From: Candidatus Micrarchaeia archaeon
GTDB taxonomy: Archaea > Micrarchaeota > Micrarchaeia > Anstonellales > J096
DNA length: 64,000 nucleotides
Assembly: GCA_041500865.1 (NCBI GenBank)
Contig: JBGQMY010000001.1
Span: 18,834 to 82,833, forward strand
Direction of reading: 5' to 3'
Numbering within the stretch: position 1 is the stretch's first letter; the number at the start of each line of letters is the position of its first letter. The notes beneath the pieces were generated by a model that worked only from the letters and a program-made list of their open reading frames with translations, ran no database searches and was not told the origin of the DNA. Shown one piece after another: positions 2,729-17,814 of this stretch. The translations under genes and the position numbers were made by a program.

Positions 2729-2736
2729 TTTAAAAA
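2729..2736 (+). promoter_or_regulatory. TATA-like box (TTTAAAAA) about 33 nt upstream of tRNA-Asn
   Basis: AT-rich box at the spacing expected for an archaeal tRNA promoter. Confidence 0.35.
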
Positions 2737-2768
2737 CCTTAGCCGGCAAGTAAAGCAACTGCAATTTA

Positions 2769-2841: not shown

Positions 2842-2848
2842 ATATCGC

Positions 2849-3310: not shown

Positions 3311-3363
3311 GGATATTCAGTTAATAATAATGTTTAAAAATGTTTTGTATCATAATAGGCAAC

Positions 3364-3891: not shown

Positions 3892-3948
3892 TTTTATTTT
3901 TTTAGGTTTCTATTTTTCCTTCTTTTCACTAAAATTATAGAAGCGAGC

Positions 3949-5208
3949 TCAAAGCGATTTTAGTCCGCCTGCTATCCTCTTGATGCGCCTTGCCAGTGCG
4001 CCGGAATCCGCGCTCTCAAGGCAGGCAACAAGGTTCTTGTCTGAGACCTCTTGTGCGTATTTTTTGCAGCGCGCGCTTAGCTCCTCAGAGGCGCTGCCCA
4101 TATATGCCAGCGCAAGCCCGAATTTCAGGATTTCCATTGAATAGCCCACATTAATGCCTTCAAGGTCAGCCAACGTTATCGCCGCCTTGGCGCGTATTGA
4201 TTCCTTAGAAGATTCCATCTTCGGGAAGCCCTTGGCAAGGAGATATTCCATGATTGAGCGCTCATCCGCAAACTTTCCCCTGTGCGTTGAAAGCAGGTAT
4301 TTCAGGACTGCGCGGTATATGCGCTCCTCGTCTGCCCTGTTGGCCTTGGCATTGCCCCAAAGCCCGCCCGAAGGGAAGTCAGAAAGCGATTTGTTGGAAT
4401 AAATCCTTATCATGGTTTCTCCGGCAAAGGCAAGGAGCCGGAACTCGTCCTCCAAAAATCTGTCGGCAAGGATGGCTGGCCTCAAGGCGCCAATGTCCCC
4501 ATCATTCTCGCATCTTTCGCCGGAGACGAACTGGAACCTCCTGACCACGACGATATTGCCTATGCCCTCAGTTGCCTTGTCCCCATAAAGAAGGGCTTCC
4601 TGTATCGCGGCATTGAGCAGGTTGCCTTCGTCCCTAAGCGCGGATATTTTTTCAACTATTTCCTTCGTAGTGCCTTCATTAACCCTTATTGCGTCTGCAA
4701 TTGCTGAAACGTCCTTGGCAGAAAGCATGCGGATAATGGCAACCATATTCCTTGCCTGTAAAGGAAAATCCTGCGCCAGCCTGTTAAATTCATCTGCATA
4801 ATCAGTGCTAAGCGGCAGCATCATGCTTCCGTGCATGTACTCTATCAGGTCGGCCGTTATGAAGCCATCGCCCCTTTTCGCAGTCTCCCTTGGAGCCCTG
4901 ACCATGTCATGCAGAAGCCCTGCCATTATCGAAAGCGCAACCGCCTTTGGCCTTTCCGGGGAATGCTCCGGCATTGCATCCATTATGTATTCTGCCCCCG
5001 CCAGCGCTGTCCTGAGCATATGGCCGCTGTTGTGCGCAGCCTGCCTGATGTGCGTTGCTTCCTGCTTGGAATAGATAGAAATGCAGGAATCCGCGAATGC
5101 GCCGAGCTTTTTGGCCAGCGCATTGGAATTTGTAAAGACATCGCGGACGCGATTTGCTGCATAGACAGCCTCTTCCCCAATTGATTTATGGAGCTTGTTT
5201 TTTGTCAT
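3949..5208 (-). CDS. HD-domain metal-dependent phosphohydrolase
   Basis: H...HD motif (HSGHMLR...LLHDMV). The ATG at 5208..5206 overlaps the upstream methyltransferase TGA at 5207..5205, an ATGA junction, which favours the MTKNK start. Confidence 0.6.
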   Translation of the reverse strand: MTKNKLHKSIGEEAVYAANRVRDVFTNSNALAKKLGAFADSCISIYSKQEATHIRQAAHNSGHMLRTALAGAEYIMDAMPEHSPERPKAVALSIMAGLLHDMVRAPRETAKRGDGFITADLIEYMHGSMMLPLSTDYADEFNRLAQDFPLQARNMVAIIRMLSAKDVSAIADAIRVNEGTTKEIVEKISALRDEGNLLNAAIQEALLYGDKATEGIGNIVVVRRFQFVSGERCENDGDIGALRPAILADRFLEDEFRLLAFAGETMIRIYSNKSLSDFPSGGLWGNAKANRADEERIYRAVLKYLLSTHRGKFADERSIMEYLLAKGFPKMESSKESIRAKAAITLADLEGINVGYSMEILKFGLALAYMGSASEELSARCKKYAQEVSDKNLVACLESADSGALARRIKRIAGGLKSL

Positions 5209-6362
5209 GCAACCGCCTTTCTTTTTGCCATTGAGACGACATTGAGGTTGCCCTTGTTCCTCTTCTTGGTCACAAGCCTGTATTTTTCCATGCACTCCCT
5301 GTCAAAGCAGAAGCCGTTCTCAGCAAAGGCTGTTTCACGCCTCCACGCCCTTTCATGGCCCTCAACCACGTATATGGGCGACTTTGTCCCCTTTTCCGCA
5401 AAAATCTTGCCTACCTCAAACCAGAACTTCAGTATCGCCGCGTCAGCCTTCCTCTCGTCTTCAGAGAGGTTGGCAAATGCCAGGCCGCAGGAAAATGCGT
5501 CAAGATTAAAATATTTCCTGAATGCTGCTGCCCGTTCCTCCACAAAAGGCACCACAAGCGGCGCGCCTGCGCTAATGCGTTTAAAAACGTCTTTTTCTAT
5601 TTCCGCATTCCTGTGTCCTGAACTGTGGTTGGCAAGCAAAGTAAGAAGCCAGTAAACCCTTTCCGGCTTCTCCGAAAGCCCGTCATACCAGTCCCCGCTG
5701 ATGAGAGGGGCGTTTGGCTTAAGGGTCTTGGACATGGCCCCAAGATGGAAATTGAATGAGTTGTGGTGTATCGCCGCATTGGTTATGGCCATGTCAATTG
5801 AACCTGGCTTGATTTGCCGCAACGCCTCGGTTTCAGTCAGGTTATATACAACCGCAATGTTGGCTGCTGCCGTATTTATCTTCCTTATGGCATCAAGCGC
5901 TGCCTTTGTCCTGCTTGAGGACGGCTCAATGAGGGTAAGTTTTATGTTCGGGACTATTGTGCCGCCCAAGGCCGAAAGCATGGCCATTGACGTTGCGCCT
6001 GCGCCTGCGCCCACATCTAGCACAGATATGATTCCGTTCTTGCTGTGGGCAGATGCTGAGGCATATCCTCCTATTAGGGCATTCATGGTCGCATTCACGT
6101 CGCCGAGGCCCGCATTTTCCGAGGCCTTGCCCACAAGCGCGTTCAGCGAAGGGTCTGTGTCCTTCCATTCAACGGAATATGCCTCCTGCGATGCGCCATA
6201 AAGCCAGCCTATGTTTTCAGGGGTTATGCCTATGCCCCAGTTCCTGTATGAATACGAGGTTGCCCTCAGGATGCTGCCAAGCGGAACAGGGGACCAAGAC
6301 GTAAGGTCATCAATCTCGCGAACCCGCCTCTCTATGTCCTTTGTTGAGGTTAATATGTCCAT
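5205..6362 (-). CDS. class I SAM-dependent methyltransferase with a C-terminal extension
   Basis: Motif I (VLDVGAGAGATS) in a Rossmann-like fold. Translationally coupled to the downstream HD-domain gene. Confidence 0.65.
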   Translation of the reverse strand: MDILTSTKDIERRVREIDDLTSWSPVPLGSILRATSYSYRNWGIGITPENIGWLYGASQEAYSVEWKDTDPSLNALVGKASENAGLGDVNATMNALIGGYASASAHSKNGIISVLDVGAGAGATSMAMLSALGGTIVPNIKLTLIEPSSSRTKAALDAIRKINTAAANIAVVYNLTETEALRQIKPGSIDMAITNAAIHHNSFNFHLGAMSKTLKPNAPLISGDWYDGLSEKPERVYWLLTLLANHSSGHRNAEIEKDVFKRISAGAPLVVPFVEERAAAFRKYFNLDAFSCGLAFANLSEDERKADAAILKFWFEVGKIFAEKGTKSPIYVVEGHERAWRRETAFAENGFCFDRECMEKYRLVTKKRNKGNLNVVSMAKRKAVA

Positions 6363-6457
6363 GGTTGTATTGTGTAGATAAATGTTTAAAAATAGTGGTT
6401 ATTATCCGCTCTTTATAAAGATTACTTAGCCGTAACAGGGCATGATTTGGTGAGAAT

Positions 6458-7549
6458 ATGGTCTATGTGAAATCGGTTGCGCCAACAAATATAGCGGTCG
6501 TGAAATACTGGGGGAAGAACCCCTTGTGGGAAACGTACATGATACCCACCAAGAGCTCAGTCTCTTTTACTGTTGAGGGATTCCAGAGCGAAACCGAGCT
6601 GGACGCGCAGGCAGGCAGCGGCAAGGTGGAGTTCACGCTCAACGACAAAGCCATAACGCCGGACATGAAGGAATACGAATACGTGAAGGACATGTTCGGA
6701 AAGGCGTTTGAGCTGTTTCCAAACACCAAAAAGTACGATTATGCCGTAAAGAGCAGGAACAACTTCCCGACTGCGGCAGGATACGCCTCCTCGGCAAGCG
6801 GATTCGCGGCGCTTGCAAGGGCGCTCCAGGGCGCAATGAAGAGGCTTGAACCCGAGTTTTACGGAAAATACATGGCAAATGACAGGCTGCTTTCGGTTTT
6901 TGCGAGGCTGGGCAGCGGCTCCGCGACAAGGAGCGTGCCGAAGAAGGGTGGGTTCGTGCTTTGGAGGCGCGGCATGGGCCCAAAGGCCAAGAGTCCCGAA
7001 GGCATGGACGCAGCAGCAAAGGGGAAGGCAATATTCTCAAGCTGTTCCAAAAGCGTGCTTGCCCCGGAACACTGGCCGGAGCTCAGGATGATATACACAA
7101 AGGTGGAGGAGAAGGAGAAGAAGATAAAGAGCAGGGCAGGCATGAAAACATCTCTGCAGACGTGCCCGATATACTGGGACTGGGTGGATTACGAGGAGAA
7201 AAAGGACCTGCCGGCAGTCATTGACGCTGTCAGGGCAAAGGACTTCCAGGCATTCGCGAGGCTGGCAATGCAATGCAGCAACGGCCTGCATGCGATTATG
7301 GGATATACGTATCCAAGGATATCATACCTTACTGAGGGAAGCCTTGCCATAATAGACGCTGTCCATGCAATGAACGAGACGGAAACAAAGGCCGCGTACA
7401 CGTTTGATGCAGGGCCGAACGCGATAGTCTTCACGCTGGACAAGCATGAAAGCGAAGTGAAGTCCGCGCTTTCCGAGATAGTCGGAAGCGACAAGGTTGC
7501 AGTGACAAGGATGGGCAAGGGCTCACGGATAGAGAAGGTGGAAGGATGA
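6458..7549 (+). CDS. mvaD: diphosphomevalonate decarboxylase (GHMP family)
   Basis: N-terminal APTNIAVVKYWGK signature and a GHMP ATP-binding motif (AAGYASSASGFAA). First gene of a three-gene operon. Confidence 0.8.
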   Translation: MVYVKSVAPTNIAVVKYWGKNPLWETYMIPTKSSVSFTVEGFQSETELDAQAGSGKVEFTLNDKAITPDMKEYEYVKDMFGKAFELFPNTKKYDYAVKSRNNFPTAAGYASSASGFAALARALQGAMKRLEPEFYGKYMANDRLLSVFARLGSGSATRSVPKKGGFVLWRRGMGPKAKSPEGMDAAAKGKAIFSSCSKSVLAPEHWPELRMIYTKVEEKEKKIKSRAGMKTSLQTCPIYWDWVDYEEKKDLPAVIDAVRAKDFQAFARLAMQCSNGLHAIMGYTYPRISYLTEGSLAIIDAVHAMNETETKAAYTFDAGPNAIVFTLDKHESEVKSALSEIVGSDKVAVTRMGKGSRIEKVEG

Positions 7550-8643
7550 ATTCAGTAAACGTTCCTGGCAAGATACTGTTTTACGGCGGGTTCAGCGTGC
7601 TGGAAAGGGGCAACATTGCGCTAAGCGTCGCGGTCTGCGGGGAGGACGGCAGGGGCGTTGTGGCAGGTGCGGAAATAGGGGCAAGGAGGATTGTCTCGCC
7701 CCAGTTCGGGCTTGACATCAGCCCTTCGCTTGCCGACGGCCAGATAGTCTCTTATGCATACGTGTTTGCCGAGACCTACCTCAGGTCATGCGGCAAGTGG
7801 ACAGGCGACATAAGGCTGAAGGTGGAAAACAGCCCTGTGTTCGGGGCCAAGGACAGGAAGACCGGGCTCGGCAGCTCGGCTGCCGCAACCGTGGCCGTGG
7901 TCAAGGCGCTGTTTGAGGCAAACGGCCTGGACTCCAGCGCGCATGTCGAGACTGTGCACAAGCTTTCGCAGCTGGCATATGCCGCATTCTCAAAGAAGGT
8001 CGGCTCCGGGTTCGACATAGCGACAAGCGCATTCGGCAGAAGCATCATATACAATAGGTATGACCCGGCCGAGATTTCGCTTCCTTCTTCGCAGGAGGGA
8101 GCGGAAATCGGAAGGGCGATAGCCGCTTCTGTCAACAGGCCATGGGGGTGGGTGAAGGCAATCCCGTTTGCGTTTCCCAATGACTACAAGATTGTGTTCT
8201 TCAACATAATAAGGGGCAGCACGTCCACGATAAGCAGCGTCAAGGCTGCCATGGAATGGAAAAAGAGCAATGGCGACGAATACAAAAGGCTGATTGCGAA
8301 GCAAAGGGACGCCGAGGCAAAGGCCATTGAAGCCCTTTCTGCGCATAAGAGCGCCGACGTCAGAAAATACACCCATGTTGCGCGCGAGGCCCACCAGGAG
8401 CTGCAGAAAAGGGTCAAGGGGGCCGTGCCGGATTTTGACCCAATAGAGCCGGAACAGCTGACTGCCATAATACAGGATGCGGAGAAGATGGACGGAATTG
8501 TAGCCGGACGGTGCCCTGGCGCAGGCGGATATGACGGCGTGGCCTTCATAGCCGAAAGCAGATTTAGGGAAACTGGGGAGATAGCCGGGCTTGGGAAAAG
8601 GCATGGCCTGAAGCTCGAGCACATACCTTTGAGGGTGCTTTGA
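7546..8643 (+). CDS. phosphomevalonate kinase (Erg8/MvaK2-type GHMP kinase)
   Basis: N-terminal PGKILFYGGFSVLERG and a GHMP motif (KTGLGSSAAATVA). Four-nt ATGA overlap with the decarboxylase gene. Confidence 0.7.
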   Translation: MNSVNVPGKILFYGGFSVLERGNIALSVAVCGEDGRGVVAGAEIGARRIVSPQFGLDISPSLADGQIVSYAYVFAETYLRSCGKWTGDIRLKVENSPVFGAKDRKTGLGSSAAATVAVVKALFEANGLDSSAHVETVHKLSQLAYAAFSKKVGSGFDIATSAFGRSIIYNRYDPAEISLPSSQEGAEIGRAIAASVNRPWGWVKAIPFAFPNDYKIVFFNIIRGSTSTISSVKAAMEWKKSNGDEYKRLIAKQRDAEAKAIEALSAHKSADVRKYTHVAREAHQELQKRVKGAVPDFDPIEPEQLTAIIQDAEKMDGIVAGRCPGAGGYDGVAFIAESRFRETGEIAGLGKRHGLKLEHIPLRVL

Positions 8644-9522
8644 ATGCCTGGAACAGGATACGGCAAGGTCATTTTGTTTGGAGAGCATTTCGTCGTGCAT
8701 AACGAGCCTGCCATAGTCGCAGGACTGAAGAACATGAGGACTGTCATGGAGATAGAGGAAGGGCCGTGGAACCCTGAACTGGACGAGCAGTCAAAGGCAG
8801 GATATTCGGCTGTTGCAAAGGCCTGTGGCATTGAGGGAAAGACATTCACGCTGAATATCAAGGAGACTGTGCCAATAAAGCAGAACCTTGGAAGTTCGGC
8901 TGCATTTTTTGTTGCGTTCGCCAACGCGCTGAACAAAAAATACAGGCGCGGCATGAAAAAGGATGCGATAAACAGGGCGGCATATGAAGGCGAAAAATCC
9001 ATCCACGGCAAGCCCAGCGGCATAGACAATTCCGCGTCAACATACTGCAAGCCTTTGGTGTTCAGGAAAAACGCGGACGGCTCGTTCAGCATAAAGAAGC
9101 TTAGGATAGGGGCGCCGCTGCACCTTGTGATATCAAACACGGGGCCGAAAAAGGGGACAGGGGAGCTTGTTGCGCATTTCAGTTCGCTAAAAGAGAAAAA
9201 TGCCATTTCAAAGGACATGCTCTCGCTTTACAAAAAGATATTCACAAACGCTAAGACCGCGATAAAGGAAGGCAATGCAGATGGGCTCGGATTCCTGATG
9301 AACGTAAACCACGGGCTGCTTGCATCATTTGGCCTTTCCACACCCAAGATAGAGGAGGCGCGGTTCCTGATGCGGGAAAACGGGGCTTTGGGCTCAAAGA
9401 TAACCGGGGCAGGCGGCGGGGGCAACATAATAGGCCTTTTCAGGGGCGAGGAAGAGGCGAACAGGGCGAAGGCAGAAATGGAGAAGGAAGGATTCAAGTC
9501 CTTTTACGCAAGGATTGAGTGA
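8644..9522 (+). CDS. mvk: mevalonate kinase
   Basis: N-terminal GKVILFGEHFVVHNEPAIVAGL and a GHMP motif (NLGSSAAFFVA). The start codon directly abuts the stop of the preceding gene. Confidence 0.85.
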   Translation: MPGTGYGKVILFGEHFVVHNEPAIVAGLKNMRTVMEIEEGPWNPELDEQSKAGYSAVAKACGIEGKTFTLNIKETVPIKQNLGSSAAFFVAFANALNKKYRRGMKKDAINRAAYEGEKSIHGKPSGIDNSASTYCKPLVFRKNADGSFSIKKLRIGAPLHLVISNTGPKKGTGELVAHFSSLKEKNAISKDMLSLYKKIFTNAKTAIKEGNADGLGFLMNVNHGLLASFGLSTPKIEEARFLMRENGALGSKITGAGGGGNIIGLFRGEEEANRAKAEMEKEGFKSFYARIE

Positions 9523-9567
9523 TTCCATTGTTTTGTGCGGCCCAGCCATCGGTTTTGCCTGGGATTG

Positions 9568-10578
9568 TCACTCCGGGCAAAGAAGGGCCATGATGGACAG
9601 CGATTCCCAATCCTCTTGCGGGGTGTTGGCGCATTGCGTCCAAACCTCTTGGTTTGAAAGCTTAAGGAGCGTATTCAGGGCATGGAAAAAGGCCTTGCCG
9701 TCGCTCTCATGCATGGCATGCAGCAGGTATCTTGAAGTTTCGTCGTTTTTGGCAAGCATGCCAAGAATCACGCGCTTGATGTTAATCAGCACCCATAGCC
9801 CGTCCTGCCTTTTTGCCGAATACAAGAAGGGATAATATGTCTGCAGCTCTTTCATCTTACAGAGCGCGCAATCCAGTATGCATATTGACAGCACCGTTGA
9901 AAGGGCGTCCAGGGCCGCCTGCCTGTTGGGCGATGCGCAGGATGCGGCATATGCGCGCATCAGCCTGAGCCCATTAACTTCAAAAAGGACCGTTTTGCCG
10001 CCCTCAATATGATAATTAGCCTCAGGATGGCTGATGCCGATTCCGGAAATGTGCATCTTTCGCACAAGCGGGGCCAATGCCGGGTTCAGCTTATTTTCAG
10101 TTTCATCGCATTGACTGCAAAAGGCCTTGGCATGGCCAAAACTTTCCGAATCAGTTGGAGAATAAAGCATCCTGTAATACTGCTTCATGTTCTTGGCGCG
10201 CCTTGCCACAACGCCAGTCTCATCTGCAACAAAGTCGGAGTATGTCGCTGACATCATATGCCCGAAGCGCGAGAAGAGCCTTATCTCCTTGCATTCTGGG
10301 AAGTTTTCCGGGAACAGCGCCTTCGCAAGGCGCAGAGAGAAGAATTTCTGGAGGTGGTAGGCCGCGTCTGAAGGCGGCCATACTTTGTCGTACCCTTGCC
10401 TGATTGATATGGCAAATTCTTGACTCAGGAAAACATCATTGTGAAAGGGCTGGACGCGCTCAACCAGGTCCTTCTTGCCCGGACCCAGGCATATTCTCGA
10501 AACCCTTGCCTCGTCCCCCTTGCAAAGGGCCGTCCTTTTGCCAAGGCCGCGGACAGGCGGGGCTATCTTGACGCTCAT
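9568..10578 (-). CDS. hypothetical protein
   Basis: Track ORF is 9568..10659. The internal ATG at 10578 is preferred because an ATTTTTAAAT box sits about 27 nt upstream at roughly 10601..10610. No recognisable domain. Confidence 0.4.
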   Translation of the reverse strand: MSVKIAPPVRGLGKRTALCKGDEARVSRICLGPGKKDLVERVQPFHNDVFLSQEFAISIRQGYDKVWPPSDAAYHLQKFFSLRLAKALFPENFPECKEIRLFSRFGHMMSATYSDFVADETGVVARRAKNMKQYYRMLYSPTDSESFGHAKAFCSQCDETENKLNPALAPLVRKMHISGIGISHPEANYHIEGGKTVLFEVNGLRLMRAYAASCASPNRQAALDALSTVLSICILDCALCKMKELQTYYPFLYSAKRQDGLWVLINIKRVILGMLAKNDETSRYLLHAMHESDGKAFFHALNTLLKLSNQEVWTQCANTPQEDWESLSIMALLCPE

Positions 10579-10767
10579 GTTATAAATAATGGTTAATAGT
10601 ATTTTTAAATGGCATGGGACAGGGTCGTGTGAAGCATTATTACTAAAAAAACGCCTCACACAATGGATATATACCTCTTAATTTCCATAATGCCCCAGAA
10701 AATCCCTTTTTGAGCCGTAATCCGCCGATACAAACATATTTAAACACGTTTATACATAAATATACAC

Positions 10768-12201
10768 ATGCAGAGCAAAGCCCTCATCTCCTTCGGCGGG
10801 CCATTCCCCTATGACAGGTCGTTCCGCGGCCAAGGCATAGTCCAAGGCGACCTAATCAAGGAGGCGGCCAGCCGGGGCATGAAATCCGTCGTAATATCCA
10901 AGTACCACGGGCACAGGGACCCGCTCCTGGAAAGGGCGGAGTCCATGCAGAACGTCATAGCGGAAAAGGCGTTCTGCAGCGAAATGGCGTTCATGTACAA
11001 GTCCGATTTCTGCGACGCAAAGAACAGGTGCAAGATGGGCATGCAGACCGGAAAGCCGGGCGCAATAGGGCACTGGGGCAGGTTCTATGGCATAAACCAG
11101 GTAAGGAGGCTCGCTGAAACGTATGGGCAGGTATATTACTTCATGCATTACTACAACTCCAGGTTCATGGACGCGGAATACTTCTCAAGGCTTGTCAAGC
11201 ATGAGAATCTTGGCAGTGCAATAAAGGCATATTACTTCATACATGTCGCCCCGGACCAGCTTGTTGAAAGCGAAAGGGACGGCGGCTGGATGCTAAAGCA
11301 GAACACCGGAGGCGCGGTGGAATCGCTGGTAAAGGCGATTGAGGAGGACTGCTTCAAGGCATTCATAGCAGTAAGCCAGGCTGCAAGGGACATGTGGATA
11401 GAGCTGATAAAGGCATTTGGATATAGCCATGAAACCGTGTCAGCGGCAGAAAAAAGGATAAGGGCGGTGCCCAACGGCATAGACGCCAACCTCTACGGCT
11501 CGTCGTCCCTATTGGATTCCTCTGCCCTTGAAAAGGAAAGGGCGAAGCTGGGGTTCGACCCTTCAGTAAGGAAAATAGTGCTTGTAATGACCAGGCCCAG
11601 CATATCAAAGGGCATAGACAGGATAGAGGGCATCCTTGAGGAATTCAACGATTCAACAGAGGCGAGGCTGAAAAAGATAGGGTTTCTCGTCACAATGCCA
11701 GAAACAGAAGGAACGGAACAGTTCCTTGGAAAAATCAGGCACATGTCAAACCTGGTGGACGGCAACAGGCTGAAGGTCACGCTGGACATATCAAAGATAG
11801 TCAGGAACAGGCCCGAGCTTCACGAGGAGCTTGACAACATCCAGACTCTCATGCCGTTAAGCTACCAGGACGACAGGTTCTACATAAAGCCGATAGGTTA
11901 TCCGCTGACGTACGTTTCGGACGTTTTCCTGCACCTGCCGCATGCCGAGGCGTTCGGCCTTGTCGTTGCAGAGGCGCTGATGTCAGGCTGCGCTGTCGTG
12001 ACCACAGATGCAGGGGGAATACCAGAGGTGACAAAAAACTCGGAAAACAGCGTGATGTTCGACCACAGAAGGATTGACAGGGGCATTGTGGTTGAGGCTG
12101 TTGCCGACATCGAAAAGCCGGCTGCGCCGAACGGCGCGTTTGTCGAGCAGTTCAGTTTAAAAAGACAATTCGACAAGATAGTGGGTGATGGTAATGAATA
12201 G
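10768..12201 (+). CDS. glycosyltransferase family 1 (GT-B fold)
   Basis: C-terminal GT1 signature (EAFGLVVAEALMSGCAVVTTDAGGIPEV). A TATA-like box (ATATTTAAAC) lies about 27 nt upstream. Confidence 0.7.
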   Translation: MQSKALISFGGPFPYDRSFRGQGIVQGDLIKEAASRGMKSVVISKYHGHRDPLLERAESMQNVIAEKAFCSEMAFMYKSDFCDAKNRCKMGMQTGKPGAIGHWGRFYGINQVRRLAETYGQVYYFMHYYNSRFMDAEYFSRLVKHENLGSAIKAYYFIHVAPDQLVESERDGGWMLKQNTGGAVESLVKAIEEDCFKAFIAVSQAARDMWIELIKAFGYSHETVSAAEKRIRAVPNGIDANLYGSSSLLDSSALEKERAKLGFDPSVRKIVLVMTRPSISKGIDRIEGILEEFNDSTEARLKKIGFLVTMPETEGTEQFLGKIRHMSNLVDGNRLKVTLDISKIVRNRPELHEELDNIQTLMPLSYQDDRFYIKPIGYPLTYVSDVFLHLPHAEAFGLVVAEALMSGCAVVTTDAGGIPEVTKNSENSVMFDHRRIDRGIVVEAVADIEKPAAPNGAFVEQFSLKRQFDKIVGDGNE

Positions 12202-12775
12202 TGTGAATCCAAGCCTTGTGCATTACGGAATGAACAGGTATGTCTTCAGGCTGGACAGCAGAAGGAGAATAGAAATAAGGAAGATAGGCAACGATTCGAT
12301 CCTGTTCAAGATAATGAGAAAAAACAGGGCAACAGGCGAAGGCAATGCCCAAAGCTACCTGTTCCGCATGAAGGATATGGGTGAGGATGAAGAAAGCGAC
12401 CTGAAAAGAATCATGACAAACGTAAACATGCTGGCAGACATGATAAAGCTGAAAACAGACAGGGGCGACCAGGACGAGAAGTGGAAGAAGAAGCTCAATT
12501 TCTACCTGATGATACTCGGCCAGAGCAGCATGGCAGACAAGCACCTCAAGAGGATATACGAAAGGGAAGGCATAGCATACAGGAAAGAGGAGCTGCCCAG
12601 GATAAAGAGGCTTGTCATAAGGCTCTTCACCATACCCGAGCCTGAGCATGTGATTGCAAAGGCCGTTGAGAAAAAGATAAGCCTGAAGCCGGACGACGTG
12701 CCCAAAATCTGCTGGGGAATACACGCGTTCCAGCACGCGCTGGACGAGATAAGGGAAGGCAAAAGGATTTACTGA
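12185..12775 (+). CDS. hypothetical protein
   Basis: Charged, helical, 196 aa. Overlaps the end of the glycosyltransferase gene by 17 nt. Confidence 0.4.
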   Translation: MMVMNSVNPSLVHYGMNRYVFRLDSRRRIEIRKIGNDSILFKIMRKNRATGEGNAQSYLFRMKDMGEDEESDLKRIMTNVNMLADMIKLKTDRGDQDEKWKKKLNFYLMILGQSSMADKHLKRIYEREGIAYRKEELPRIKRLVIRLFTIPEPEHVIAKAVEKKISLKPDDVPKICWGIHAFQHALDEIREGKRIY

Positions 12776-12820
12776 TTGCAAAATCATTAGCTTTTTAAGG
12801 GTTTAACTTCAATTCTGCTT

Positions 12821-12863
12821 ATGGCAAACATTCACGATAACAGGGGATACCGTGGCGGCAGGC
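12821..12863 (+). repeat. 43-bp direct repeat, left copy (identical to 16921..16963, the start of the Nop5-like gene)
   Basis: Exact 43-nt identity (atggcaaacattcacgataacaggggataccgtggcggcaggc). Degenerate similarity also runs through the 25 nt of promoter sequence upstream. Confidence 0.9.
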
Positions 12864-13202
12864 GACAGCGGCAGGATTGCGAGGCTCCTGAGGCTCGGCG
12901 CCGACGTTTGGGCAAGGGACAATCTAGGCTTTACCGCACTCATGTGCGCCTCATTTGATGGGCACATCAGCATCTGCGCGCTGCTGCTTGAAAGGCTCGC
13001 GCAGGCAGGCGGGGACACAAGAAAGTATATCGAGACTGTGATAGAGGAAGGCATCCATAAGGGATGGGCTGCATTCACATATGCCGAATATAATCACAGG
13101 AAGCCGGCCAAGTTTCTAAAGGCGGCTCCGTTGCTTGCCGAGTCGATGGGAAACGCGGATTTCGCCAAGTTCCTTTCAGGCTTCAGGGAATGCATGGGCT
13201 GA
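12852..13202 (+). CDS. ankyrin-family C-terminal fragment driven by the duplicated Nop5 promoter/start
   Basis: One ankyrin repeat plus the family's C-terminal FAKFLSGFRECMG tail. GTG start in the track. Reading frame differs from that of the duplicated ATG. Confidence 0.5.
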   Translation: MAAGDSGRIARLLRLGADVWARDNLGFTALMCASFDGHISICALLLERLAQAGGDTRKYIETVIEEGIHKGWAAFTYAEYNHRKPAKFLKAAPLLAESMGNADFAKFLSGFRECMG

Positions 13203-13300
13203 TAATAGTCACAGAATCAAGATATGTTATAAAAATGTCAAAGAAGACGATATTTCTCAAATTTATATAGGTTACTTTTATAAATTATAATAAGTATTAA

Positions 13301-13660
13301 ATGGTCGGTGATTACATGGAAGATATAGAAGAAACTCCAGAGTCAATTACAGTTTCAGATTCTTATTCTTTTAAACTTTATCACGGAAGCAAAAAGAAAT
13401 ATTTACTAAAGGGAACAGGTAATGACAACGTTCAAAAAAGAATTTCAAGGAAACCATATGGTGCGCATGGTGCAATCCACCTAGTTATGGTAAAAGGAAA
13501 GTATGTTCATATCGATTGCAAAAACAAGGGATGCGGTAACAACTGGACAATGGAAAAAAATGGGAAGAATTATACTAACTTTTTTAGTGTGGAAAAAGAA
13601 GCATCTGGTATTGATTTGATTAAGTGCAAGAAATGTGGTGCTGAACACGAAAGTGGTTGA
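13301..13660 (+). CDS. small hypothetical protein with a Zn-ribbon-like CxxC...CxxC pair
   Basis: CKNKGC ... CKKCG. AT-rich (about 33% GC), unlike the surrounding genome. Confidence 0.4.
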   Translation: MVGDYMEDIEETPESITVSDSYSFKLYHGSKKKYLLKGTGNDNVQKRISRKPYGAHGAIHLVMVKGKYVHIDCKNKGCGNNWTMEKNGKNYTNFFSVEKEASGIDLIKCKKCGAEHESG

Positions 13661-13694
13661 TCCGAGATAGAGTAATAATGCAGCGACAAAAGAT

Positions 13695-14138
13695 TCAATC
13701 TTTTATTTTATAAACTTCAAAACCTTCTGCCAAAGCAACTTCTTTTAGATACTTATCCGCTGATGCAAATATTAGTTCATTGTGATTTTTCTTAGCTTCC
13801 AAGGCGCAAGCCAATTGCATTGCATCGAAAGATTCTAATTTTGCGTATTTTTCCATAAGCTGAACGCTTTTTTCCAATATTTCCTTAGTTATCTTTACTG
13901 TATTAAAGGATCTATATTCAACTAAAAAAGCATTTATATCGTTATGCTTCTTCGTCAGATTTGTTATTATTTCGTATGGCAAAAGGGATGAAATTATTAC
14001 ATTTTTAATGCCGCTGGATGCCTTTCCGTCAGATGATTCATTTAATATGGTCCAATATAAATTATTCATTTCGTTCGTACACTGCTCTTGCCTGAATATA
14101 CCAAACAATGCGCTGGTGTCACAGAAATAGTACTTCAT
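13695..14138 (-). CDS. PIN-domain (VapC-like) nuclease
   Basis: N-terminal YFCDTSAL with conserved acidic residues (SFDAMQLA). The ATG at 14138..14136 overlaps the restriction-modification gene TGA as an ATGA junction. AT-rich. Confidence 0.7.
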   Translation of the reverse strand: MKYYFCDTSALFGIFRQEQCTNEMNNLYWTILNESSDGKASSGIKNVIISSLLPYEIITNLTKKHNDINAFLVEYRSFNTVKITKEILEKSVQLMEKYAKLESFDAMQLACALEAKKNHNELIFASADKYLKEVALAEGFEVYKIKD

Positions 14139-16834
14139 TCTAGGCTTTCCTCTATTATTTTCCTTTCTTCATCCGTAATGTCATACAATTTATAGACTTC
14201 TTCATCAATTTCATTATCTAATTTTTGGATTTCTTTTTCAAGACGAATTTTTTCGTCGGTTTGCTTGTCTGATAATAATACAAATTTTTTTGCAAGACTA
14301 AGTCTATTATCAATTAATTTAATGATAATTTGCCTATTTGAATCAATAACTACGGGTAGTATATCTAGAAATTCGCTCCGATATCTCATATATCCTCCGC
14401 CCATATGCATTCCACCAAAAAGTACATTATATACAAAAGAAAGTAATTTACTATTTAATATACCCAATATGTATTTCAGTTCAATATCTTTAATTAAGGT
14501 GGCAAAGTAGACACCTCCTTGAGGAATTCTCTTGTCAAAATCAATAGTTGCACTAATCGTTAAAGCATCTTCCGCAATAATTAATTTATCTTTAAAAGAA
14601 TTCAGGAGCCGTTCAGACTTTTCTCCTGCAACAGTCATCAAATGATGTTTGCTAATATATGTGCCCTCCCTGATAGGGCCCCATTTTTCAAATTGATACT
14701 GTTTAACAATACCAAAATCATTCTTCTGTTTTTCTTCATAATCCACAGGAATTCTGAATCCTTCTGATATCTGTAAAATATCTGACAGTTTCCCATTTTG
14801 ACTCTCAAGTTTTAAAACTAAATTTATTGCTTTCTGGTTTGAGTTTATAGGAAATACTTTATAAGGAACAATAGAAAGATCATTGTTCTTTATATTAGAT
14901 ATTTCAAATTTGTTATTCAAAAAATATGCCAAATTTCTGATAAATCCTAACTTTAAATTTTTTAATTTTTCGCCTTTCCGTATGAGTATAATTACAGGGT
15001 AGTTGCTAGCGTCTTTAAAAATATCCAAATGACTAACACTTAATATTGAACAATCTTCAGAAGAATTCAGTAATAATTCCCGCAATTTTTTTGCTGAGGC
15101 AGCAGCACAAAATTTATTTGGAAGTATAAATCCGAGATACCCTCCTTTCTTTATTAATTTAAGAGATTGCTCAATAAAAAGATAATAAAGGTCGTATTTT
15201 CCTTCGGAAACAATAAACTCATCTTTCCAAAATTCCTTATCTTCTTTATCTAAACTATCAACTCTGACATACGGCGGATTACCAATCACCACGTCAAACC
15301 CATACCCTTCTTTCAGATTGCCGTTTTCGTCGTATTGTATGGTGTCCGGGAACTGCTCGTCCCAATTGAGCGGCTTCTTGTCATCCCACTTTTCGCCGAA
15401 GTATTTCTTCAGCTCCTCTTCCTTCCCGGAAATCAGCGAATTGCCGTTCTTTATGTTCCCGGAAAGCAGGGGGAACATTCCTCTTTTCCGCGAAGTTTCA
15501 ACCGCCTTAAGCAACAGGTTAAGCTCGGATATCTCAATGGCCTTTTTGTCAAGGTCTACGCCGTGTATGTTCTTGGTCAGAATCATGTGGGCATTGCGCG
15601 ATATGTCCTCCGTCAGCATCCCGCTGTCCCCGCCGTACGCCTTCCTGTACGCATCCGCGAACATCCCATAGGCGCGTATCAGGAACGAGCCCGAGCCGCA
15701 TGCCGGGTCAAGCACCTTTATCTTCTGCAGTTTCTCAGGTGTGTCTGCGCCCTTCAAGACCTCGCCAAGCGTGTTTTTGACAATATAATCGACAATGTAA
15801 CGGGGCGTGTAATAAATGCCCATTTCCTTCCTGTTGGCCTCTTTTGCCACCAAACGGCCGCTTTCACGCAATATCGTGGCAAGGTACTGCTCATATATCC
15901 CGCCCAGGACATCAACGTCTATGGCTGAAAAATCCCATTTATAAAGGCCGTCCTCTCCGTCTATGAGCTTCTCGACCACGGCATCGTCAATGTACATTTC
16001 CCCGGCAAAGTGGGGCGAAAACAGGTCACTGTCGTACCATTCTATGAAATCGTCAAAAACCTCCCTTAGGTGGCGCATGAGCTTCTTTTTCCCGTTTTCC
16101 CTCCATATGCGCACGGATTCCCGAAGCCGCTCATTCTCTATCCCAAGGCCCTCGCAGGTCCTTATGAACACGAAGCGGTTAAGCAGCTTCTGGACGCCCT
16201 CATCCACCTGCTCCTTGGAAAGCTTGTTGAGCCTGCTGTGCTCCATGATGTTGTTGGAAAGCGCCTTCCTCCATGCCATCAGGTCGTTAAGGAGCGCCTT
16301 GCCCACCGGCTCAGGCTTTATCTTCTTTCCCACCTTTTCAGCATAAGTGTCTATCTCATTGGAGGCAAACGCCTCCTTTCCAAGGAGCAGCAGTTCGCCA
16401 AGCCGTGAGACATAGTCATCCAGCGTGAATTTAAGGAACCGGCTGTCCTTGTTGTATTTTGCTTCGGCATTGTAGATAATCAGTTCCCTGAAGTTTGTCA
16501 GGACTGCCCATGGAACTGACTTGTAATAGGCATAATCAACCGACTGCTCCGCTTCCTTTTCCTCAAGCTCGACATTCACTGCCTTCGCCTCAAGGAAGAA
16601 CTTAAAGACCCCGGAAACCATGAAGGCATAGTCTGCCCTTGTGCGCAGGACATTGGACTCCATGGAGACTTCCCCAAGATCCTTCATATTCCAGCCAAGA
16701 GCCTCAAGAAGGGGCTCTATAAAAACCCTTTTTGTGTCGGGCTCCCCAAGGCCCTTTAGCATCCCCCTTGCCTCATATCCCTTATATTTTGAGACAAGCT
16801 CGGATATCTTGGCCTTTGCCGCTTCCGTATCCAT
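14135..16834 (-). CDS. Type IIG restriction-modification enzyme, MmeI-like: PD-(D/E)xK nuclease, gamma-class N6-adenine methyltransferase and target-recognition domain
   Basis: N-terminal D...EAK nuclease motif (ADYAF...FLEAKAV). Methyltransferase motif I LDPACGSGSFL at about aa 376 and motif IV GNPPY at aa 518-522. The 899-aa length matches MmeI. GC content drops sharply across the NPPY motif. Confidence 0.8.
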   Translation of the reverse strand: MDTEAAKAKISELVSKYKGYEARGMLKGLGEPDTKRVFIEPLLEALGWNMKDLGEVSMESNVLRTRADYAFMVSGVFKFFLEAKAVNVELEEKEAEQSVDYAYYKSVPWAVLTNFRELIIYNAEAKYNKDSRFLKFTLDDYVSRLGELLLLGKEAFASNEIDTYAEKVGKKIKPEPVGKALLNDLMAWRKALSNNIMEHSRLNKLSKEQVDEGVQKLLNRFVFIRTCEGLGIENERLRESVRIWRENGKKKLMRHLREVFDDFIEWYDSDLFSPHFAGEMYIDDAVVEKLIDGEDGLYKWDFSAIDVDVLGGIYEQYLATILRESGRLVAKEANRKEMGIYYTPRYIVDYIVKNTLGEVLKGADTPEKLQKIKVLDPACGSGSFLIRAYGMFADAYRKAYGGDSGMLTEDISRNAHMILTKNIHGVDLDKKAIEISELNLLLKAVETSRKRGMFPLLSGNIKNGNSLISGKEEELKKYFGEKWDDKKPLNWDEQFPDTIQYDENGNLKEGYGFDVVIGNPPYVRVDSLDKEDKEFWKDEFIVSEGKYDLYYLFIEQSLKLIKKGGYLGFILPNKFCAAASAKKLRELLLNSSEDCSILSVSHLDIFKDASNYPVIILIRKGEKLKNLKLGFIRNLAYFLNNKFEISNIKNNDLSIVPYKVFPINSNQKAINLVLKLESQNGKLSDILQISEGFRIPVDYEEKQKNDFGIVKQYQFEKWGPIREGTYISKHHLMTVAGEKSERLLNSFKDKLIIAEDALTISATIDFDKRIPQGGVYFATLIKDIELKYILGILNSKLLSFVYNVLFGGMHMGGGYMRYRSEFLDILPVVIDSNRQIIIKLIDNRLSLAKKFVLLSDKQTDEKIRLEKEIQKLDNEIDEEVYKLYDITDEERKIIEESLE

Positions 16835-16920
16835 AGAACCAGTATATTCTCAAACAATTATAAACCTTGCCAAGAGAACCCATCCCTCAGGTTTATAAGC
16901 ATTTAACCTAAACTACGTTC

Positions 16921-16963
16921 ATGGCAAACATTCACGATAACAGGGGATACCGTGGCGGCAGGC
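16921..16963 (+). repeat. 43-bp direct repeat, right copy (native 5' end of the Nop5-like gene)
   Basis: Identical to 12821..12863. Confidence 0.9.
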
Positions 16964-17814
16964 ATTACGGCGGAAAGCCCAGCGGAGGCTTTGGAAGGGA
17001 CGGGGGCCGGTTCGGGGGAGGCCAGGGCGGAGGCAGCAACCTCAGGGAAAAGTTCATGCACAGGGCACGCAAGAAGTTCGAGGAGTTCAGGGCAAGGGAA
17101 GATTTATTCTTAATGGAAGTGGACAGGGCCATTGACGACCTGGACAAGATGATAAACCTCATCGGCGAAAGGCTTGAGGAATGGATGGCATTCTACATAA
17201 GCGGCATAAGGCTGGGCGAAAAGGCCAAGCTGGCAAAGCTGACAATACTCATAGCAGACAAGAAGGACATAACAAAAGAGGATCTCAACGCATTCCTCAG
17301 CGAGAAGGAGACTGAAGCGGTCTTTGAAAAGCTGGGGCAAAGGACAAAGGAGGTCAAGGAAAAGGACCTCATTTACATGAAGAAATACGCGGAAATGCTG
17401 CTGAAGATGGTTGAGCTTAACGAGTTTTACGCGAACGAGATTGACGCACTGGCGAACAGGATTGCGCCGAACGCGACATACCTCGTGGGCGGAAAGGTCG
17501 TCGCGAAGATGATTACGCTGGCAAAGGGCCTTGACAGGCTGGCAAAGATGCCATCCAGCACCGTCCAGCTGCTTGGCGCCGAGAAGGCGCTGTTCAATTA
17601 CCTGAAGATGGGAAAGAAGGGCGACCCGCCAAAGCACGGCGTCATACTTTTCTCGCCCCAGGTTTCCGGCGTAAGGAAGGAATACAGGGGCAGGATGGCA
17701 AGGACGCTTGCTGCTAAGCTTTCAATAGCGTTCAGGGTTGACGACGCAAAAGGCGAGTTCTACGGCAAGCAGCTGAAGGAAGCGATAGACAGGAGAATGA
17801 AGGAACTGATTTAG
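16921..17814 (+). CDS. Nop5/Nop56-family (Nop-domain) C/D box RNP protein with an N-terminal Gly/Arg-rich (RGG) extension
   Basis: C-terminal Nop domain (LVGGKVVAKMITLAKGLDRLAKMPSSTVQLLGAEKALF...PKHGVILF...RGRMARTLAAKLSIAFRVD), preceded by a coiled-coil region. The first 40 aa are RGG/GGG-rich. A TTTATAAG box lies about 30 nt upstream of the ATG. Confidence 0.75.
   Translation: MANIHDNRGYRGGRHYGGKPSGGFGRDGGRFGGGQGGGSNLREKFMHRARKKFEEFRAREDLFLMEVDRAIDDLDKMINLIGERLEEWMAFYISGIRLGEKAKLAKLTILIADKKDITKEDLNAFLSEKETEAVFEKLGQRTKEVKEKDLIYMKKYAEMLLKMVELNEFYANEIDALANRIAPNATYLVGGKVVAKMITLAKGLDRLAKMPSSTVQLLGAEKALFNYLKMGKKGDPPKHGVILFSPQVSGVRKEYRGRMARTLAAKLSIAFRVDDAKGEFYGKQLKEAIDRRMKELI

What the first reader, a model, noticed from the sequence alone, without database searches (positions are those of the whole stretch)
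15245..15300. Sharp GC-content break inside the restriction-modification gene at the NPPY catalytic motif
Upstream of about nt 15280, which encodes the N-terminal nuclease and methyltransferase motifs I to IV, the gene is about 50-55% GC like the host. From the NPPY codons (15269..15280) to the stop at 14135 it drops to about 33-36% GC, together with the downstream PIN and Zn-ribbon genes (13203..15270 overall).

This implies a chimeric enzyme whose C-terminal half, the helical and target-recognition domains, was replaced by foreign DNA. The crossover sits at the most conserved motif. A specificity swap like this is known for type I hsdS genes but is rarely documented for MmeI-like enzymes.
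Basis: seen in the sequence. Interest (0 to 1): 0.65.

Follow-up and report, generated by a model that had tools for sequence, protein, structure and literature searches.

The report
Swapped specificity half in restriction enzyme
A single-chain restriction-modification gene in a Micrarchaeia (DPANN) archaeon is a real composite whose DNA-recognition half was replaced by AT-rich foreign DNA exactly after the catalytic NPPY motif, and the same splice point turns out to be used again and again across this enzyme family, a known kind of specificity swapping.

Summary
In the 899-aa gene at 14135..16834 (-), GC falls from 0.51 (GC3 0.66) to 0.30 (GC3 0.23). The change point is nt 15272 (support 15249-15289), which lies in the NPPY codons.

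It is not an assembly artefact. Three near-identical assemblies carry it. A 91%-identical allele, assembled three more times, breaks at the same nucleotide.

- **Recurrent swap.** Among 105 relatives, at least 30 C-half replacements are implied, and 53 of 59 discordant pairs break at aa 522-524. In three locus pairs DNA homology stops 1-2 nt before the end of the Tyr codon and resumes about 200 nt before the stop codon. The family therefore exchanges a cassette between two conserved arms.
- **PIN and Zn-ribbon genes.** These are not demonstrably part of the same event, because the sister allele lacks them.
- **"Host-like" N-half.** It is not native. The whole gene lies in a 4.1-kb insertion, flanked by a 43-nt perfect repeat of the Nop56 5' end, that a sister species lacks.
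- **Family.** The enzyme is an Eco57I/TaqI_C-type type IIG enzyme, not MmeI family.

LlaGI/LlaBIII, Campylobacter Cj0031 and H. pylori mod genes are precedents. This is a well-resolved new member of a known kind.

The parts
14135..16834 (-). Single-chain type IIG restriction-modification gene, 899 aa. It combines a PD-ExK nuclease, a gamma-class N6-adenine methyltransferase and a TaqI_C-type recognition domain.
   Evidence: Pfam Eco57I 3.4e-36, N6_Mtase 2.5e-21, HSDR_N 5.8e-8, TaqI_C 4.5e-5. PADLOC REase_MTase_IIG 2e-105. AF2 model pLDDT 83.
15269..16834 (-). N-terminal scaffold half, aa 1-522: nuclease, helical region and the AdoMet-binding part of the methyltransferase up to NPPY. GC 0.51, GC3 0.66.
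   Evidence: Family-invariant D68, E82, K84 and DPACGSGSFL (aa 376-385). Nearest relatives are Micrarchaeota/DPANN proteins at 61% or less.
16424..16669 (-). PD-(D/E)xK nuclease core, aa 56-137, with D68 and E82-x-K84.
   Evidence: HSDR_N/HSDR_N_2 Pfam matches. These residues are invariant in a 45-sequence alignment. The AF2 model shows a strand-rich core at 56-137.
15680..15712 (-). Methyltransferase motif I (AdoMet binding), aa 375-385, LDPACGSGSFL.
   Evidence: Invariant columns L375-L385. Translation.
15249..15289 (-). Recombination junction. It contains the NPPY codons 15269-15280, and the GC change point is at 15272.
   Evidence: The ML change point has delta lnL 62.5 and support 15249-15289. 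The L014 allele has the same change point. Family breakpoints lie at aa 522-524 in 53 of 59 pairs. DNA homology ends 1-2 nt before the end of the Tyr codon in 3 locus pairs.
14138..15268 (-). Imported C-terminal specificity half, aa 523-899: the remaining methyltransferase strands (motifs after IV), the recognition domain and the C-terminal helices. GC 0.30, GC3 0.23.
   Evidence: The best relatives are 51-54% identical and sit in 33-38% GC genomes. Against L014, dN/dS is 0.10.
14138..14344 (-). Conserved C-terminal helical tail, aa 831-899. This is the usual downstream recombination arm of the family. In this gene it is still low in GC.
   Evidence: Column conservation is 0.55 for the last 30 aa. 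In L053/L056, L019/L024 and L070/L085, homology resumes about 195-210 nt before the stop codon. Identity in swapped pairs is 0.57 here versus 0.24-0.31 in the cassette.
13695..14138 (-). PIN-domain gene, 147 aa. Its ATG overlaps the RM stop codon (ATGA). Low GC. Absent from the sister allele's locus.
   Evidence: Pfam PIN 1.5e-9. The only match in the protein database is itself. It is not present downstream of the RM gene in L014-L016.
13301..13660 (+). 119-aa ORF with a CX4C...CX2C pattern (putative zinc ribbon). Low GC. Convergent with the PIN gene.
   Evidence: No Pfam, NCBIfam, PADLOC or PHROGs match. Sequence. Found only in the three near-identical assemblies.
13203..15270 (.). Whole low-GC tract (about 0.27-0.36 GC): Zn-ribbon ORF, PIN gene and the RM C-half.
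12852..13202 (+). Ankyrin-repeat ORF, 116 aa, with host-like GC. It lies inside the 4.1-kb insertion. Many paralogues occur elsewhere in the window.
   Evidence: Pfam Ank/Ank_2. tblastn paralogue hits.
12789..12863 (+). Left copy of the direct repeat: the ancestral Nop56 promoter plus the first 43 nt of the Nop56 coding sequence, now orphaned.
   Evidence: the repeat finder family D1, with 43 nt perfect at 12821-12863 = 16921-16963. Its upstream part matches the Nop56 upstream region in L012.
16889..16963 (+). Right copy of the direct repeat: an island-borne promoter region plus the 5' end of the functional Nop56 gene (16921..17814).
   Evidence: The intergenic region shared with L014 aligns up to 16907.

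Best explanation
**What the gene is.** The gene at 14135..16834 (-) encodes an intact single-chain type IIG-type restriction-modification enzyme. It has an N-terminal PD-ExK nuclease, a gamma-class N6-adenine methyltransferase and a TaqI_C-type recognition domain.

**How it was built (inferred).** It is a recombinant. The scaffold half (aa 1-522, Micrarchaeota-like, 51% GC) is joined in frame, at the Tyr codon of NPPY, to a specificity half (aa 523-899, 30% GC). That half was imported from an AT-rich donor.

**Why the join is at NPPY.**
- The roughly 33 nt encoding GFDVVIGNPPY are the last DNA-level conserved block before the variable region.
- The last 65 or so codons form a second conserved block.
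- Recombination or gene conversion between diverged alleles at these two arms replaces the cassette in between. The cassette holds the rest of the Rossmann fold, the recognition domain and the C-terminal helices.
- One recognition domain serves both cutting and methylation. One exchange is therefore expected to re-target both activities together (inferred).

**What is shown.** The compositional and phylogenetic chimerism, the position of the junction, its recurrence across the family, and purifying selection on both halves after the fusion.

**What is inferred.** The homology-driven mechanism and the change of recognition sequence.

**Setting in this genome.** The already-chimeric gene sits in a 4.1-kb insertion at the 5' end of Nop56, flanked by direct repeats. 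The adjacent low-GC PIN and Zn-ribbon genes are most likely a separable acquisition.
For: Composition and junction:
- The GC change point is at 15272, with GC3 0.66 to 0.23.
- Independent assemblies and a diverged allele share the junction.

Discordant relatives of the two halves:
- The best N-half relatives, P0002 and P0003, are 61% identical in the N-half and 30-31% in the C-half.
- P0019 is 47% in the N-half and 53% in the C-half.
- The cassette's relatives lie in 33-38% GC genomes.

Polarity:
- In L014 the low-GC piece is bounded by GC-normal DNA on both sides. The cassette is therefore the incoming piece.

Family-wide pattern:
- 18 of 23 N-half clusters (at least 80% identity) hold two or more unrelated C-halves. 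This implies at least 30 replacements.
- 53 of 59 discordant pairs break at aa 522-524. One example is P0064/P0082, N 0.99 and C 0.26.
- Nucleotide homology of 80-95% over about 1.8 kb stops 1-2 nt before the end of the Tyr codon. It resumes about 200 nt before the stop codon, in L053/L056, L019/L024 and L070/L085.
- 12 of 23 genes with a significant GC change point have it within 10 nt of the end of NPPY (P about 2.5e-19).
- The 33 nt before the junction are 74% identical across the family, versus 32% just after it.

Function:
- dN/dS is 0.04-0.16 in all segments between the window and L014 alleles.
- The catalytic residues are intact.

Precedent:
- LlaGI/LlaBIII show the same pattern (PMC3553950).
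Against: - No relative with a near-identical N-half and a different cassette was found for this particular gene. The next-best N-half is 61% identical. The swap here therefore rests on composition and discordance, not on a direct before-and-after pair.
- The donor is not identified; the best cassette match is 54%.
- In this gene the low GC runs through the C-terminal tail and on into PIN and the Zn-ribbon gene. The downstream crossover is therefore not at the family's usual arm.
- C-halves average 6-7 GC points below N-halves and flanks across the family. Part of the drop could be intrinsic to this region.
- Average identical runs at the junction are only about 8 nt, which is short for classical homologous recombination.
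- Recognition specificity was not measured.
Confidence: 0.78

Rival explanations
1. One-block import. A single 2.07-kb foreign fragment (13203-15270) carrying the C-half, PIN and the Zn-ribbon gene replaced the 3' half of a resident RM gene and its downstream DNA in one event.
For: - The three parts are contiguous and have similar GC, 0.27-0.36.
- The PIN start codon overlaps the RM stop codon (ATGA), as in an operon.
- The low-GC tract ends sharply at 13202.
Against: - The 91%-identical allele (L014-L016) has the same junction and the same cassette but no PIN or Zn-ribbon gene.
- Homology between the two alleles ends within the last two RM codons.
- In L014 the RM stop codon is followed by GC-normal DNA with a relic of an o196-type gene.
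- PIN and the Zn-ribbon ORF have no detectable relatives, next to RM genes or anywhere else.
- A precise later deletion in the L014 lineage is still possible.
Confidence: 0.17
2. No recombination. The C-terminal half is intrinsically AT-rich, because of amino-acid composition or relaxed or different selection on the recognition region, and it drifted in place.
For: Across 69 family genes with at least 2 kb of flank, the C-half is on average 0.063 below flank GC and 0.070 below the N-half.
Against: - C-half GC still tracks host GC (slope 0.84). A 0.51-GC host predicts about 0.44, not 0.30.
- The window's N-minus-C difference of 0.214 is the largest of 76 genes (family mean 0.066, sd 0.049).
- The step is confined to about 40 nt and is strongest at third codon positions, 0.66 to 0.23.
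- Relatives with 91-99% identical N-halves carry unrelated C-halves.
Confidence: 0.03
3. Assembly chimera. A metagenome assembler joined reads from two organisms at the conserved NPPY-coding k-mer.
For: The source is a metagenome-assembled genome, and the junction lies in a conserved sequence.
Against: - Two junctions would be needed, and the one at 13202 is in unconserved DNA.
- The same structure appears in three near-identical assemblies from different records.
- It also appears in a diverged allele assembled independently by ENA, JGI and Logan pipelines. That allele is 88% identical in nucleotides and has accumulated synonymous changes on both sides of the junction.
Confidence: 0.01
4. Programmed switching. 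The C-half is one of several alternative cassettes exchanged within the genome by a recombinase (a shufflon or inverton type of phase variation), rather than by horizontal transfer.
For: Cassette architecture with conserved arms resembles phase-variable hsdS loci.
Against: - There is no second copy of either half anywhere in the 64-kb window (tblastn).
- No inverted repeats of the arms and no recombinase gene lie nearby.
- The foreign composition argues for an external source.
Confidence: 0.01

Closest known systems
LlaGI / LlaBIII (Type ISP single-chain RM enzymes of Lactococcus plasmids)
   Same: This is a natural pair with more than 95% identity through the nuclease, the motor and the AdoMet-binding part of the methyltransferase. 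Identity is below 50% in the final third (methyl-transfer catalysis plus recognition domain), and the last 100 or so residues are again closer (PMC3553950). That is the same conserved arm, variable cassette, conserved tail pattern.
   Different: It is a different family, with a helicase motor and translocation-collision cleavage. It is one pair in bacteria. The junction was not mapped to a codon, and no compositional scar was reported.
Campylobacter jejuni type IIG Cj0031 alleles
   Same: It is a single-chain type IIG enzyme. Its alleles are conserved in N-terminal regions I-II and C-terminal region V, and they diverge in regions III/IV (the recognition domain). The alleles have different methylation motifs (PMC4889913).
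   Different: The variation is between strains of one species. It is combined with polyG phase variation. The crossover position relative to motif IV is not defined.
Helicobacter pylori TRD movement (Type III mod, Type I and IIG S genes; Furuta and Kobayashi)
   Same: The proposed mechanism is recombination at DNA encoding conserved methyltransferase motifs, or at repeats, that flank the recognition domain (PMC3575425, PMC3077401).
   Different: In beta-class mod genes the recognition domain lies between motif blocks, so the whole catalytic core stays with the scaffold. Here the upstream arm is motif IV itself, and part of the catalytic domain travels with the cassette.
M.TaqI / CamA / M.BseCI (gamma-class adenine methyltransferases with a TaqI_C recognition domain) and BREX PglX
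   Same: These are the closest solved structures and sequences for the methyltransferase plus recognition module: Foldseek CamA E 4e-27, PglX, BseCI, TaqI. They share the NPPY pocket and a C-terminal recognition domain.
   Different: They have no N-terminal nuclease; CamA is an orphan methylase. PglX works within a multi-protein BREX system.
MmeI (Type IIL)
   Same: It is a single-chain nuclease-methylase-recognition enzyme in which one recognition domain sets both activities. Its specificity has been re-engineered (PMC2731914 and PMC4833311, listed).
   Different: None of the MmeI-specific domains match. Only the generic MmeI_Mtase profile does, at 47 bits versus 125 for Eco57I. MmeI is not among the 50 structural matches listed.

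Membership tests
Type IIG single-chain restriction-modification enzymes | N-terminal PD-(D/E)xK nuclease domain with catalytic residues in the same polypeptide | tested here: met
   HSDR_N 5.8e-8 and HSDR_N_2 7.1e-6. D68, E82 and K84 are invariant in 45 relatives.
Type IIG single-chain restriction-modification enzymes | Gamma-class N6-adenine methyltransferase with motif I followed by motif IV, NPP(Y/F/W) | tested here: met
   Eco57I 3.4e-36 and N6_Mtase 2.5e-21. DPACGSGSFL at aa 376-385 and NPPY at 519-522.
Type IIG single-chain restriction-modification enzymes | Target-recognition domain fused at the C-terminus | tested here: met
   TaqI_C scores 24.1 bits, just under the Pfam cut-off of 26.5. 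However, the AF2 model aligns over more than 620 columns to CamA, BseCI and TaqI (chains of 380-580 residues), at TM 0.65-0.73 normalised to the target.
Type IIG single-chain restriction-modification enzymes | Match to a curated type IIG profile | tested here: met
   PADLOC REase_MTase_IIG PDLC03604, E 2e-105, aa 5-697.
Type IIG single-chain restriction-modification enzymes | [quoted passage not shown] | not testable with these tools
   This needs biochemistry or a methylome.
MmeI family (Type IIL) | MmeI-specific N-terminal, helical-spacer, TRD and C-terminal domains | tested here: not met
   The Pfam scan returned only MmeI_Mtase (47 bits) among MmeI profiles. MmeI is not among the 50 Foldseek matches listed.
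Specificity-cassette exchange at conserved flanking blocks (hsdS, mod, LlaGI/LlaBIII type) | Variable segment bounded by two conserved sequence blocks | tested here: met
   Conservation is 0.49-0.71 before aa 540, 0.17-0.35 across aa 571-870 (minimum 0.17 at 631-660), and 0.55 in the last 30 aa. Nucleotide homology stops at NPPY and resumes about 200 nt before the stop codon in three pairs.
Specificity-cassette exchange at conserved flanking blocks (hsdS, mod, LlaGI/LlaBIII type) | Near-identical scaffolds carrying unrelated cassettes | tested here: inconclusive
   This is met repeatedly in the family: 59 pairs and at least 30 events. For the window gene itself, the only close relative (P0242) has the same cassette, and the next scaffold relative is 61% identical.
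Specificity-cassette exchange at conserved flanking blocks (hsdS, mod, LlaGI/LlaBIII type) | Different evolutionary origin of cassette and scaffold | tested here: met
   GC3 is 0.66 versus 0.23. The hit lists and the identity ranks are discordant.
Specificity-cassette exchange at conserved flanking blocks (hsdS, mod, LlaGI/LlaBIII type) | Exchange changes the recognised DNA sequence | not testable with these tools
   This needs methylome sequencing or expression of the alleles.
Phase-variable shufflon/inverton RM loci | Silent alternative cassettes, inverted repeats and a recombinase at the locus | tested here: not met
   There is no second copy of either half in the 64-kb window. There are no arm-derived inverted repeats and no recombinase among the neighbouring genes.
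Integrated genomic island | Direct repeats of the target at both ends, and absence from a related genome | tested here: met
   A 75-nt repeat with a 43-nt perfect core lies at 12789-12863 and 16889-16963. In L012, o196 and Nop56 are adjacent.
Integrated genomic island | Integrase or other mobility gene inside the element | tested here: not met
   The four ORFs are ankyrin, a putative Zn-ribbon protein, PIN and the RM gene. There is no integrase or transposase profile match.

The most novel reading that the evidence does not exclude
The post-NPPY cassette is a self-contained specificity module that circulates horizontally. It is shared by DPANN archaea and by CPR and other uncultivated bacteria. 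Exchange at two portable arms (the GFDVVIGNPPY codons and the C-terminal tail) is frequent enough that cassettes keep an AT-rich composition of their own. The family would then be a natural combinatorial library with a defined splice rule. That rule cuts through the catalytic domain rather than at a domain boundary. Whether a dedicated mechanism exists, beyond microhomology plus selection, is open.
Probability: 0.3. Interest if true: 0.6.

Novelty: new member of a known kind. Interest (0 to 1): 0.42.

Why it matters
**Engineering.** The result gives a codon-precise, naturally validated splice point for single-chain RM enzymes: immediately after NPPY, and again about 65 residues before the C-terminus. 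The position was worked out from dozens of natural recombinants. That is directly usable for building type IIG enzymes or methylases with new specificities. It also indicates that the methyltransferase strands after motif IV co-travel with the recognition domain, presumably because the two are co-adapted.

**Evolution.** Defence specificities in DPANN and CPR-type organisms turn over by cassette exchange much faster than the scaffold genes do. RM genes also move between Micrarchaeia lineages as complete units.

**Annotation.** An intragenic GC step in an RM gene is a reliable marker of a specificity swap, not an assembly error.

Tried and rejected
- **Source record (corrected).** I first took GCA_041480205.1 as the source and inferred a contig join near 37112. 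One search showed that the window matches P0241 and L013. GCA_041480205.1 is a 99.95% identical strain, so there is no join.
- **C-half search.** It missed the gene's own protein and P0242, because of the limits of the word index. Its list of 'short proteins' was therefore not taken as evidence of a separate half-gene family. P0132 of Atribacter is the C-part of a gene split by IS21. P0123 has a separate upstream nuclease ORF.
- **Synteny of the closest N-half relative.** P0003 (L002-L005) is not syntenic with the window.
- **Donor search.**
  - A viral-contig scan with the C-half found nothing.
  - The PIN search found only itself.
  - PADLOC and PHROGs gave nothing for PIN or the Zn-ribbon ORF.
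  - No locus among the 96 fetched has PIN or Zn-ribbon homologues.
- **Silent cassettes or invertons in the window.** None were found.
- **Literature.** Four searches found no paper naming NPPY as the crossover in single-chain type IIG enzymes. They did find clear precedents for the phenomenon.


Full report
**1. Observation**

The ORF 14135..16834 (-) encodes 899 aa.

- Sliding GC is 0.49-0.55 above about 15300 and 0.26-0.35 between 13200 and 15200. It is 0.54 again below 13200.
- A two-segment likelihood scan puts the break at gene nt 1563, which is window 15272. The support interval is 15249-15289 and delta lnL is 62.5.
- GC falls from 0.511 to 0.297. Third-position GC falls from 0.661 to 0.230.
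- The other edge of the tract is at 13202, the stop codon of an ankyrin ORF.
- In the whole 64-kb window only one other patch has 1-kb GC below 0.40. It is an intein with a LAGLIDADG domain inside RtcB, which is also an intragenic mobile element.

**2. Not an artefact**

The window's protein is P0241 exactly. The JGI contig L013 differs from the window by 2 nt in 19.7 kb. The NCBI MAG contig L001 differs by 12 nt in 22.7 kb.

A diverged allele, P0242 (901 aa, 91% amino-acid and 88% nucleotide identity), was assembled independently in ENA, JGI and Logan data (L014-L016). Its GC change point is at the same gene nucleotide, 1563.

Both halves have accumulated synonymous differences between the two alleles. 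dN/dS is 0.04-0.16 throughout. The fused protein has therefore been under purifying selection since the fusion.

**3. What the gene is**

- Pfam finds Eco57I (3.4e-36), N6_Mtase, HSDR_N nuclease and a near-threshold TaqI_C match.
- PADLOC's type IIG profile matches at 2e-105.
- D68, E82-x-K84, motif I (DPACGSGSFL) and NPPY are invariant in relatives.
- An AlphaFold model (pLDDT 83, pTM 0.79) places NPPY just after strand 513-518. After NPPY come the remaining Rossmann strands (561-572, 592-599, 613-620), a recognition domain (about 631-830) and C-terminal helices 835-898.
- The nearest solved structures are CamA, BREX PglX, M.BseCI and M.TaqI. No MmeI-specific domain matches.
- The host is a Micrarchaeia (DPANN) archaeon. 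Nop56 lies next door. The nearest genome-collection relative is titled Candidatus Micrarchaeia archaeon.

**4. The two halves have different histories**

- The N-half finds proteins of about 900 aa at 61% identity or less. The named top hits are Micrarchaeota and Ca. Iainarchaeum.
- The C-halves of those same proteins are only 26-32% identical to ours.
- The C-half's best matches (51-54%) are P0019/L006, L018 and P0123/L007-L010. They are on other scaffolds, in genomes of 0.33-0.38 GC.
- In L014 the low-GC piece is flanked by GC-normal DNA on both sides. The cassette, not the scaffold, is therefore the incoming piece.

**5. The junction is the family's recurrent crossover**

I aligned 105 full-length relatives.

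- Mean pairwise identity is 0.50 in the N-half and 0.29 in the C-half.
- 59 pairs are at least 80% identical in the N-half and at most 45% identical in the C-half. One example is P0064/P0082, at 0.99 versus 0.26.
- In 53 of these 59 pairs the identity change point is at aa 522-524.
- 18 of 23 scaffold clusters contain two or more unrelated cassettes. This implies at least 30 replacements.

At the DNA level, three independent locus pairs are 80-95% identical over about 1.8 kb:

- The pairs are L053/L056, L019/L024 and L070/L085.
- In each, homology stops 1-2 nt before the end of the NPPY Tyr codon.
- In each, homology resumes 195-210 nt before the stop codon.

Composition points the same way.

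- Among 75 family genes with DNA, the N-half matches flank GC (mean difference +0.007). The C-half averages 0.063 lower.
- 23 genes have a significant GC change point. In 12 of them it lies within 10 nt of the end of NPPY (P about 2.5e-19).
- The window gene's N-minus-C difference (0.214) is the largest seen. L002, a Micrarchaeota-type relative with an unrelated cassette, shows the same break.
- The 33 nt encoding GFDVVIGNPPY are 74% identical across the family, versus 32% immediately after them.

**6. Mechanism**

*Shown:* a cassette from the NPPY Tyr codon to roughly 65 residues before the C-terminus is replaced while the scaffold is kept.

*Inferred:* the replacement occurs by recombination or gene conversion between diverged alleles, using the two conserved coding blocks as arms. 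Selection retains only junctions that give a working enzyme. Because one recognition domain directs both methylation and cleavage, the exchange should re-target both at once.

In the window gene the low GC runs through the tail. Here the downstream crossover therefore lay at or beyond the end of the gene.

**7.

A 75-nt direct repeat lies at 12789-12863 and 16889-16963, with 43 nt perfect.

- The left copy is the ancestral Nop56 promoter plus the first 43 nt of the coding sequence. It matches the sister species L012.
- The right copy leads into the functional Nop56 gene.
- In L012 the o196 homologue and Nop56 are directly adjacent, and the 4.1-kb block is absent.

The whole RM gene, including its 'host-like' half, therefore lies in an insertion.

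In L014-L016 the same chimeric gene sits next to an RGG-rich ORF start that resembles the Nop56 N-terminus. The intergenic region between them is shared with the window.

- Its homology to the window ends in the last two RM codons.
- There it is followed by a relic of an o196-type C-terminus, not by PIN and the Zn-ribbon gene.
- The flanking glycosyltransferase gene is only 64-75% identical, against 88% for the RM gene. This suggests that the gene has moved between lineages as a unit.
- Synonymous divergence is lower in the cassette (dS 0.35) than in the scaffold (0.62-0.76). This hints that the cassette shares a more recent ancestor than the scaffold does.
- PIN and the Zn-ribbon ORF have no detectable relatives.

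Their co-arrival with the cassette is possible but unsupported.

**8. Comparison with what is known**

- LlaGI/LlaBIII show the same pattern. They are conserved through the AdoMet-binding part, diverge in the final third (catalysis plus recognition domain), and are closer again in the last 100 or so residues (PMC3553950).
- Cj0031 alleles in Campylobacter have conserved ends and a variable recognition region, with different motifs (PMC4889913).
- Furuta and Kobayashi proposed recombination at motif-coding DNA flanking the recognition domain for H. pylori mod genes (PMC3575425).
- I found no paper that maps the crossover to NPPY in single-chain type IIG enzymes. My searches covered open-access text only.

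**9. Verdict**

This is a clean, well-resolved new instance of a known evolutionary mechanism. What is added here:

- a codon-exact splice point that recurs across the family;
- the fact that this splice point cuts through the catalytic domain;
- the exceptional compositional scar in this gene.

Interest is moderate.

Noticed in passing
window 38107-40899 (+), low-GC patch about 38400-39750: The RtcB tRNA ligase gene carries an intein with a LAGLIDADG homing-endonuclease domain (Pfam RtcB 2.3e-159, Intein_splicing 1e-13, LAGLIDADG_3 1.5e-9). The insert is the only other sub-40% GC patch in the window.
   Followed up: partly
window 12789-12863 and 16889-16963: A 4.1-kb insertion (ankyrin, Zn-ribbon, PIN and RM genes) sits at the 5' end of Nop56. 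It is flanked by a 75-nt direct repeat (43 nt perfect) that duplicates the Nop56 promoter and start. The island brings its own replacement promoter, and it contains no integrase.
   Followed up: partly
L014 3106-3195 (-), versus window 12185-12775: Directly after the RM stop codon in the sister allele's locus lies a 30-aa relic of the C-terminus of an o196-type protein. It is closer to the window and L012 versions (67%) than to L014's own full-length copy. This suggests the RM gene moved together with a fragment of its former neighbour.
   Followed up: partly
window about 7000-10659, versus L014 3225-7482: Two related Micrarchaeia carry different mevalonate-pathway gene sets in the same neighbourhood. 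The window has GHMP kinases plus an MVD-like decarboxylase. L014 has AcnX, UbiD-like, flavoprotein and amino-acid-kinase-family genes.
   Followed up: no
window gene aa 1-180 (nt 16295-16834): The nuclease domain is much more diverged between the window and L014 alleles (79% aa, dS 0.76, dN/dS 0.16) than the adjacent region (95% aa). It also has lower GC in L014. There may be a second mosaic boundary near aa 180.
   Followed up: no
window 33782-36567, 47425-47784, 56000-56122, 58777-58905, 3035-3166: There are many ankyrin-repeat paralogues of the small ORF at 12852-13202, an expanded family in this DPANN genome.
   Followed up: no
L011 (Atribacter laminatus CP065383.1) 899-7212: A large methyltransferase next to an SNF2/PLD helicase-nuclease gene is split by an IS21 insertion. 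This separates a 403-aa C-part that is homologous to the window's cassette. The same cassette type therefore also serves a different RM architecture.
   Followed up: partly
L007-L010, genes at e.g. L007 4146-4823 and 5049-6845: In one cassette relative the nuclease domain (225 aa) and the methyltransferase plus recognition part (598 aa) are separate ORFs about 225 nt apart. The split is conserved in four assemblies, so it is either a natural two-gene version or a fixed disruption.
   Followed up: no
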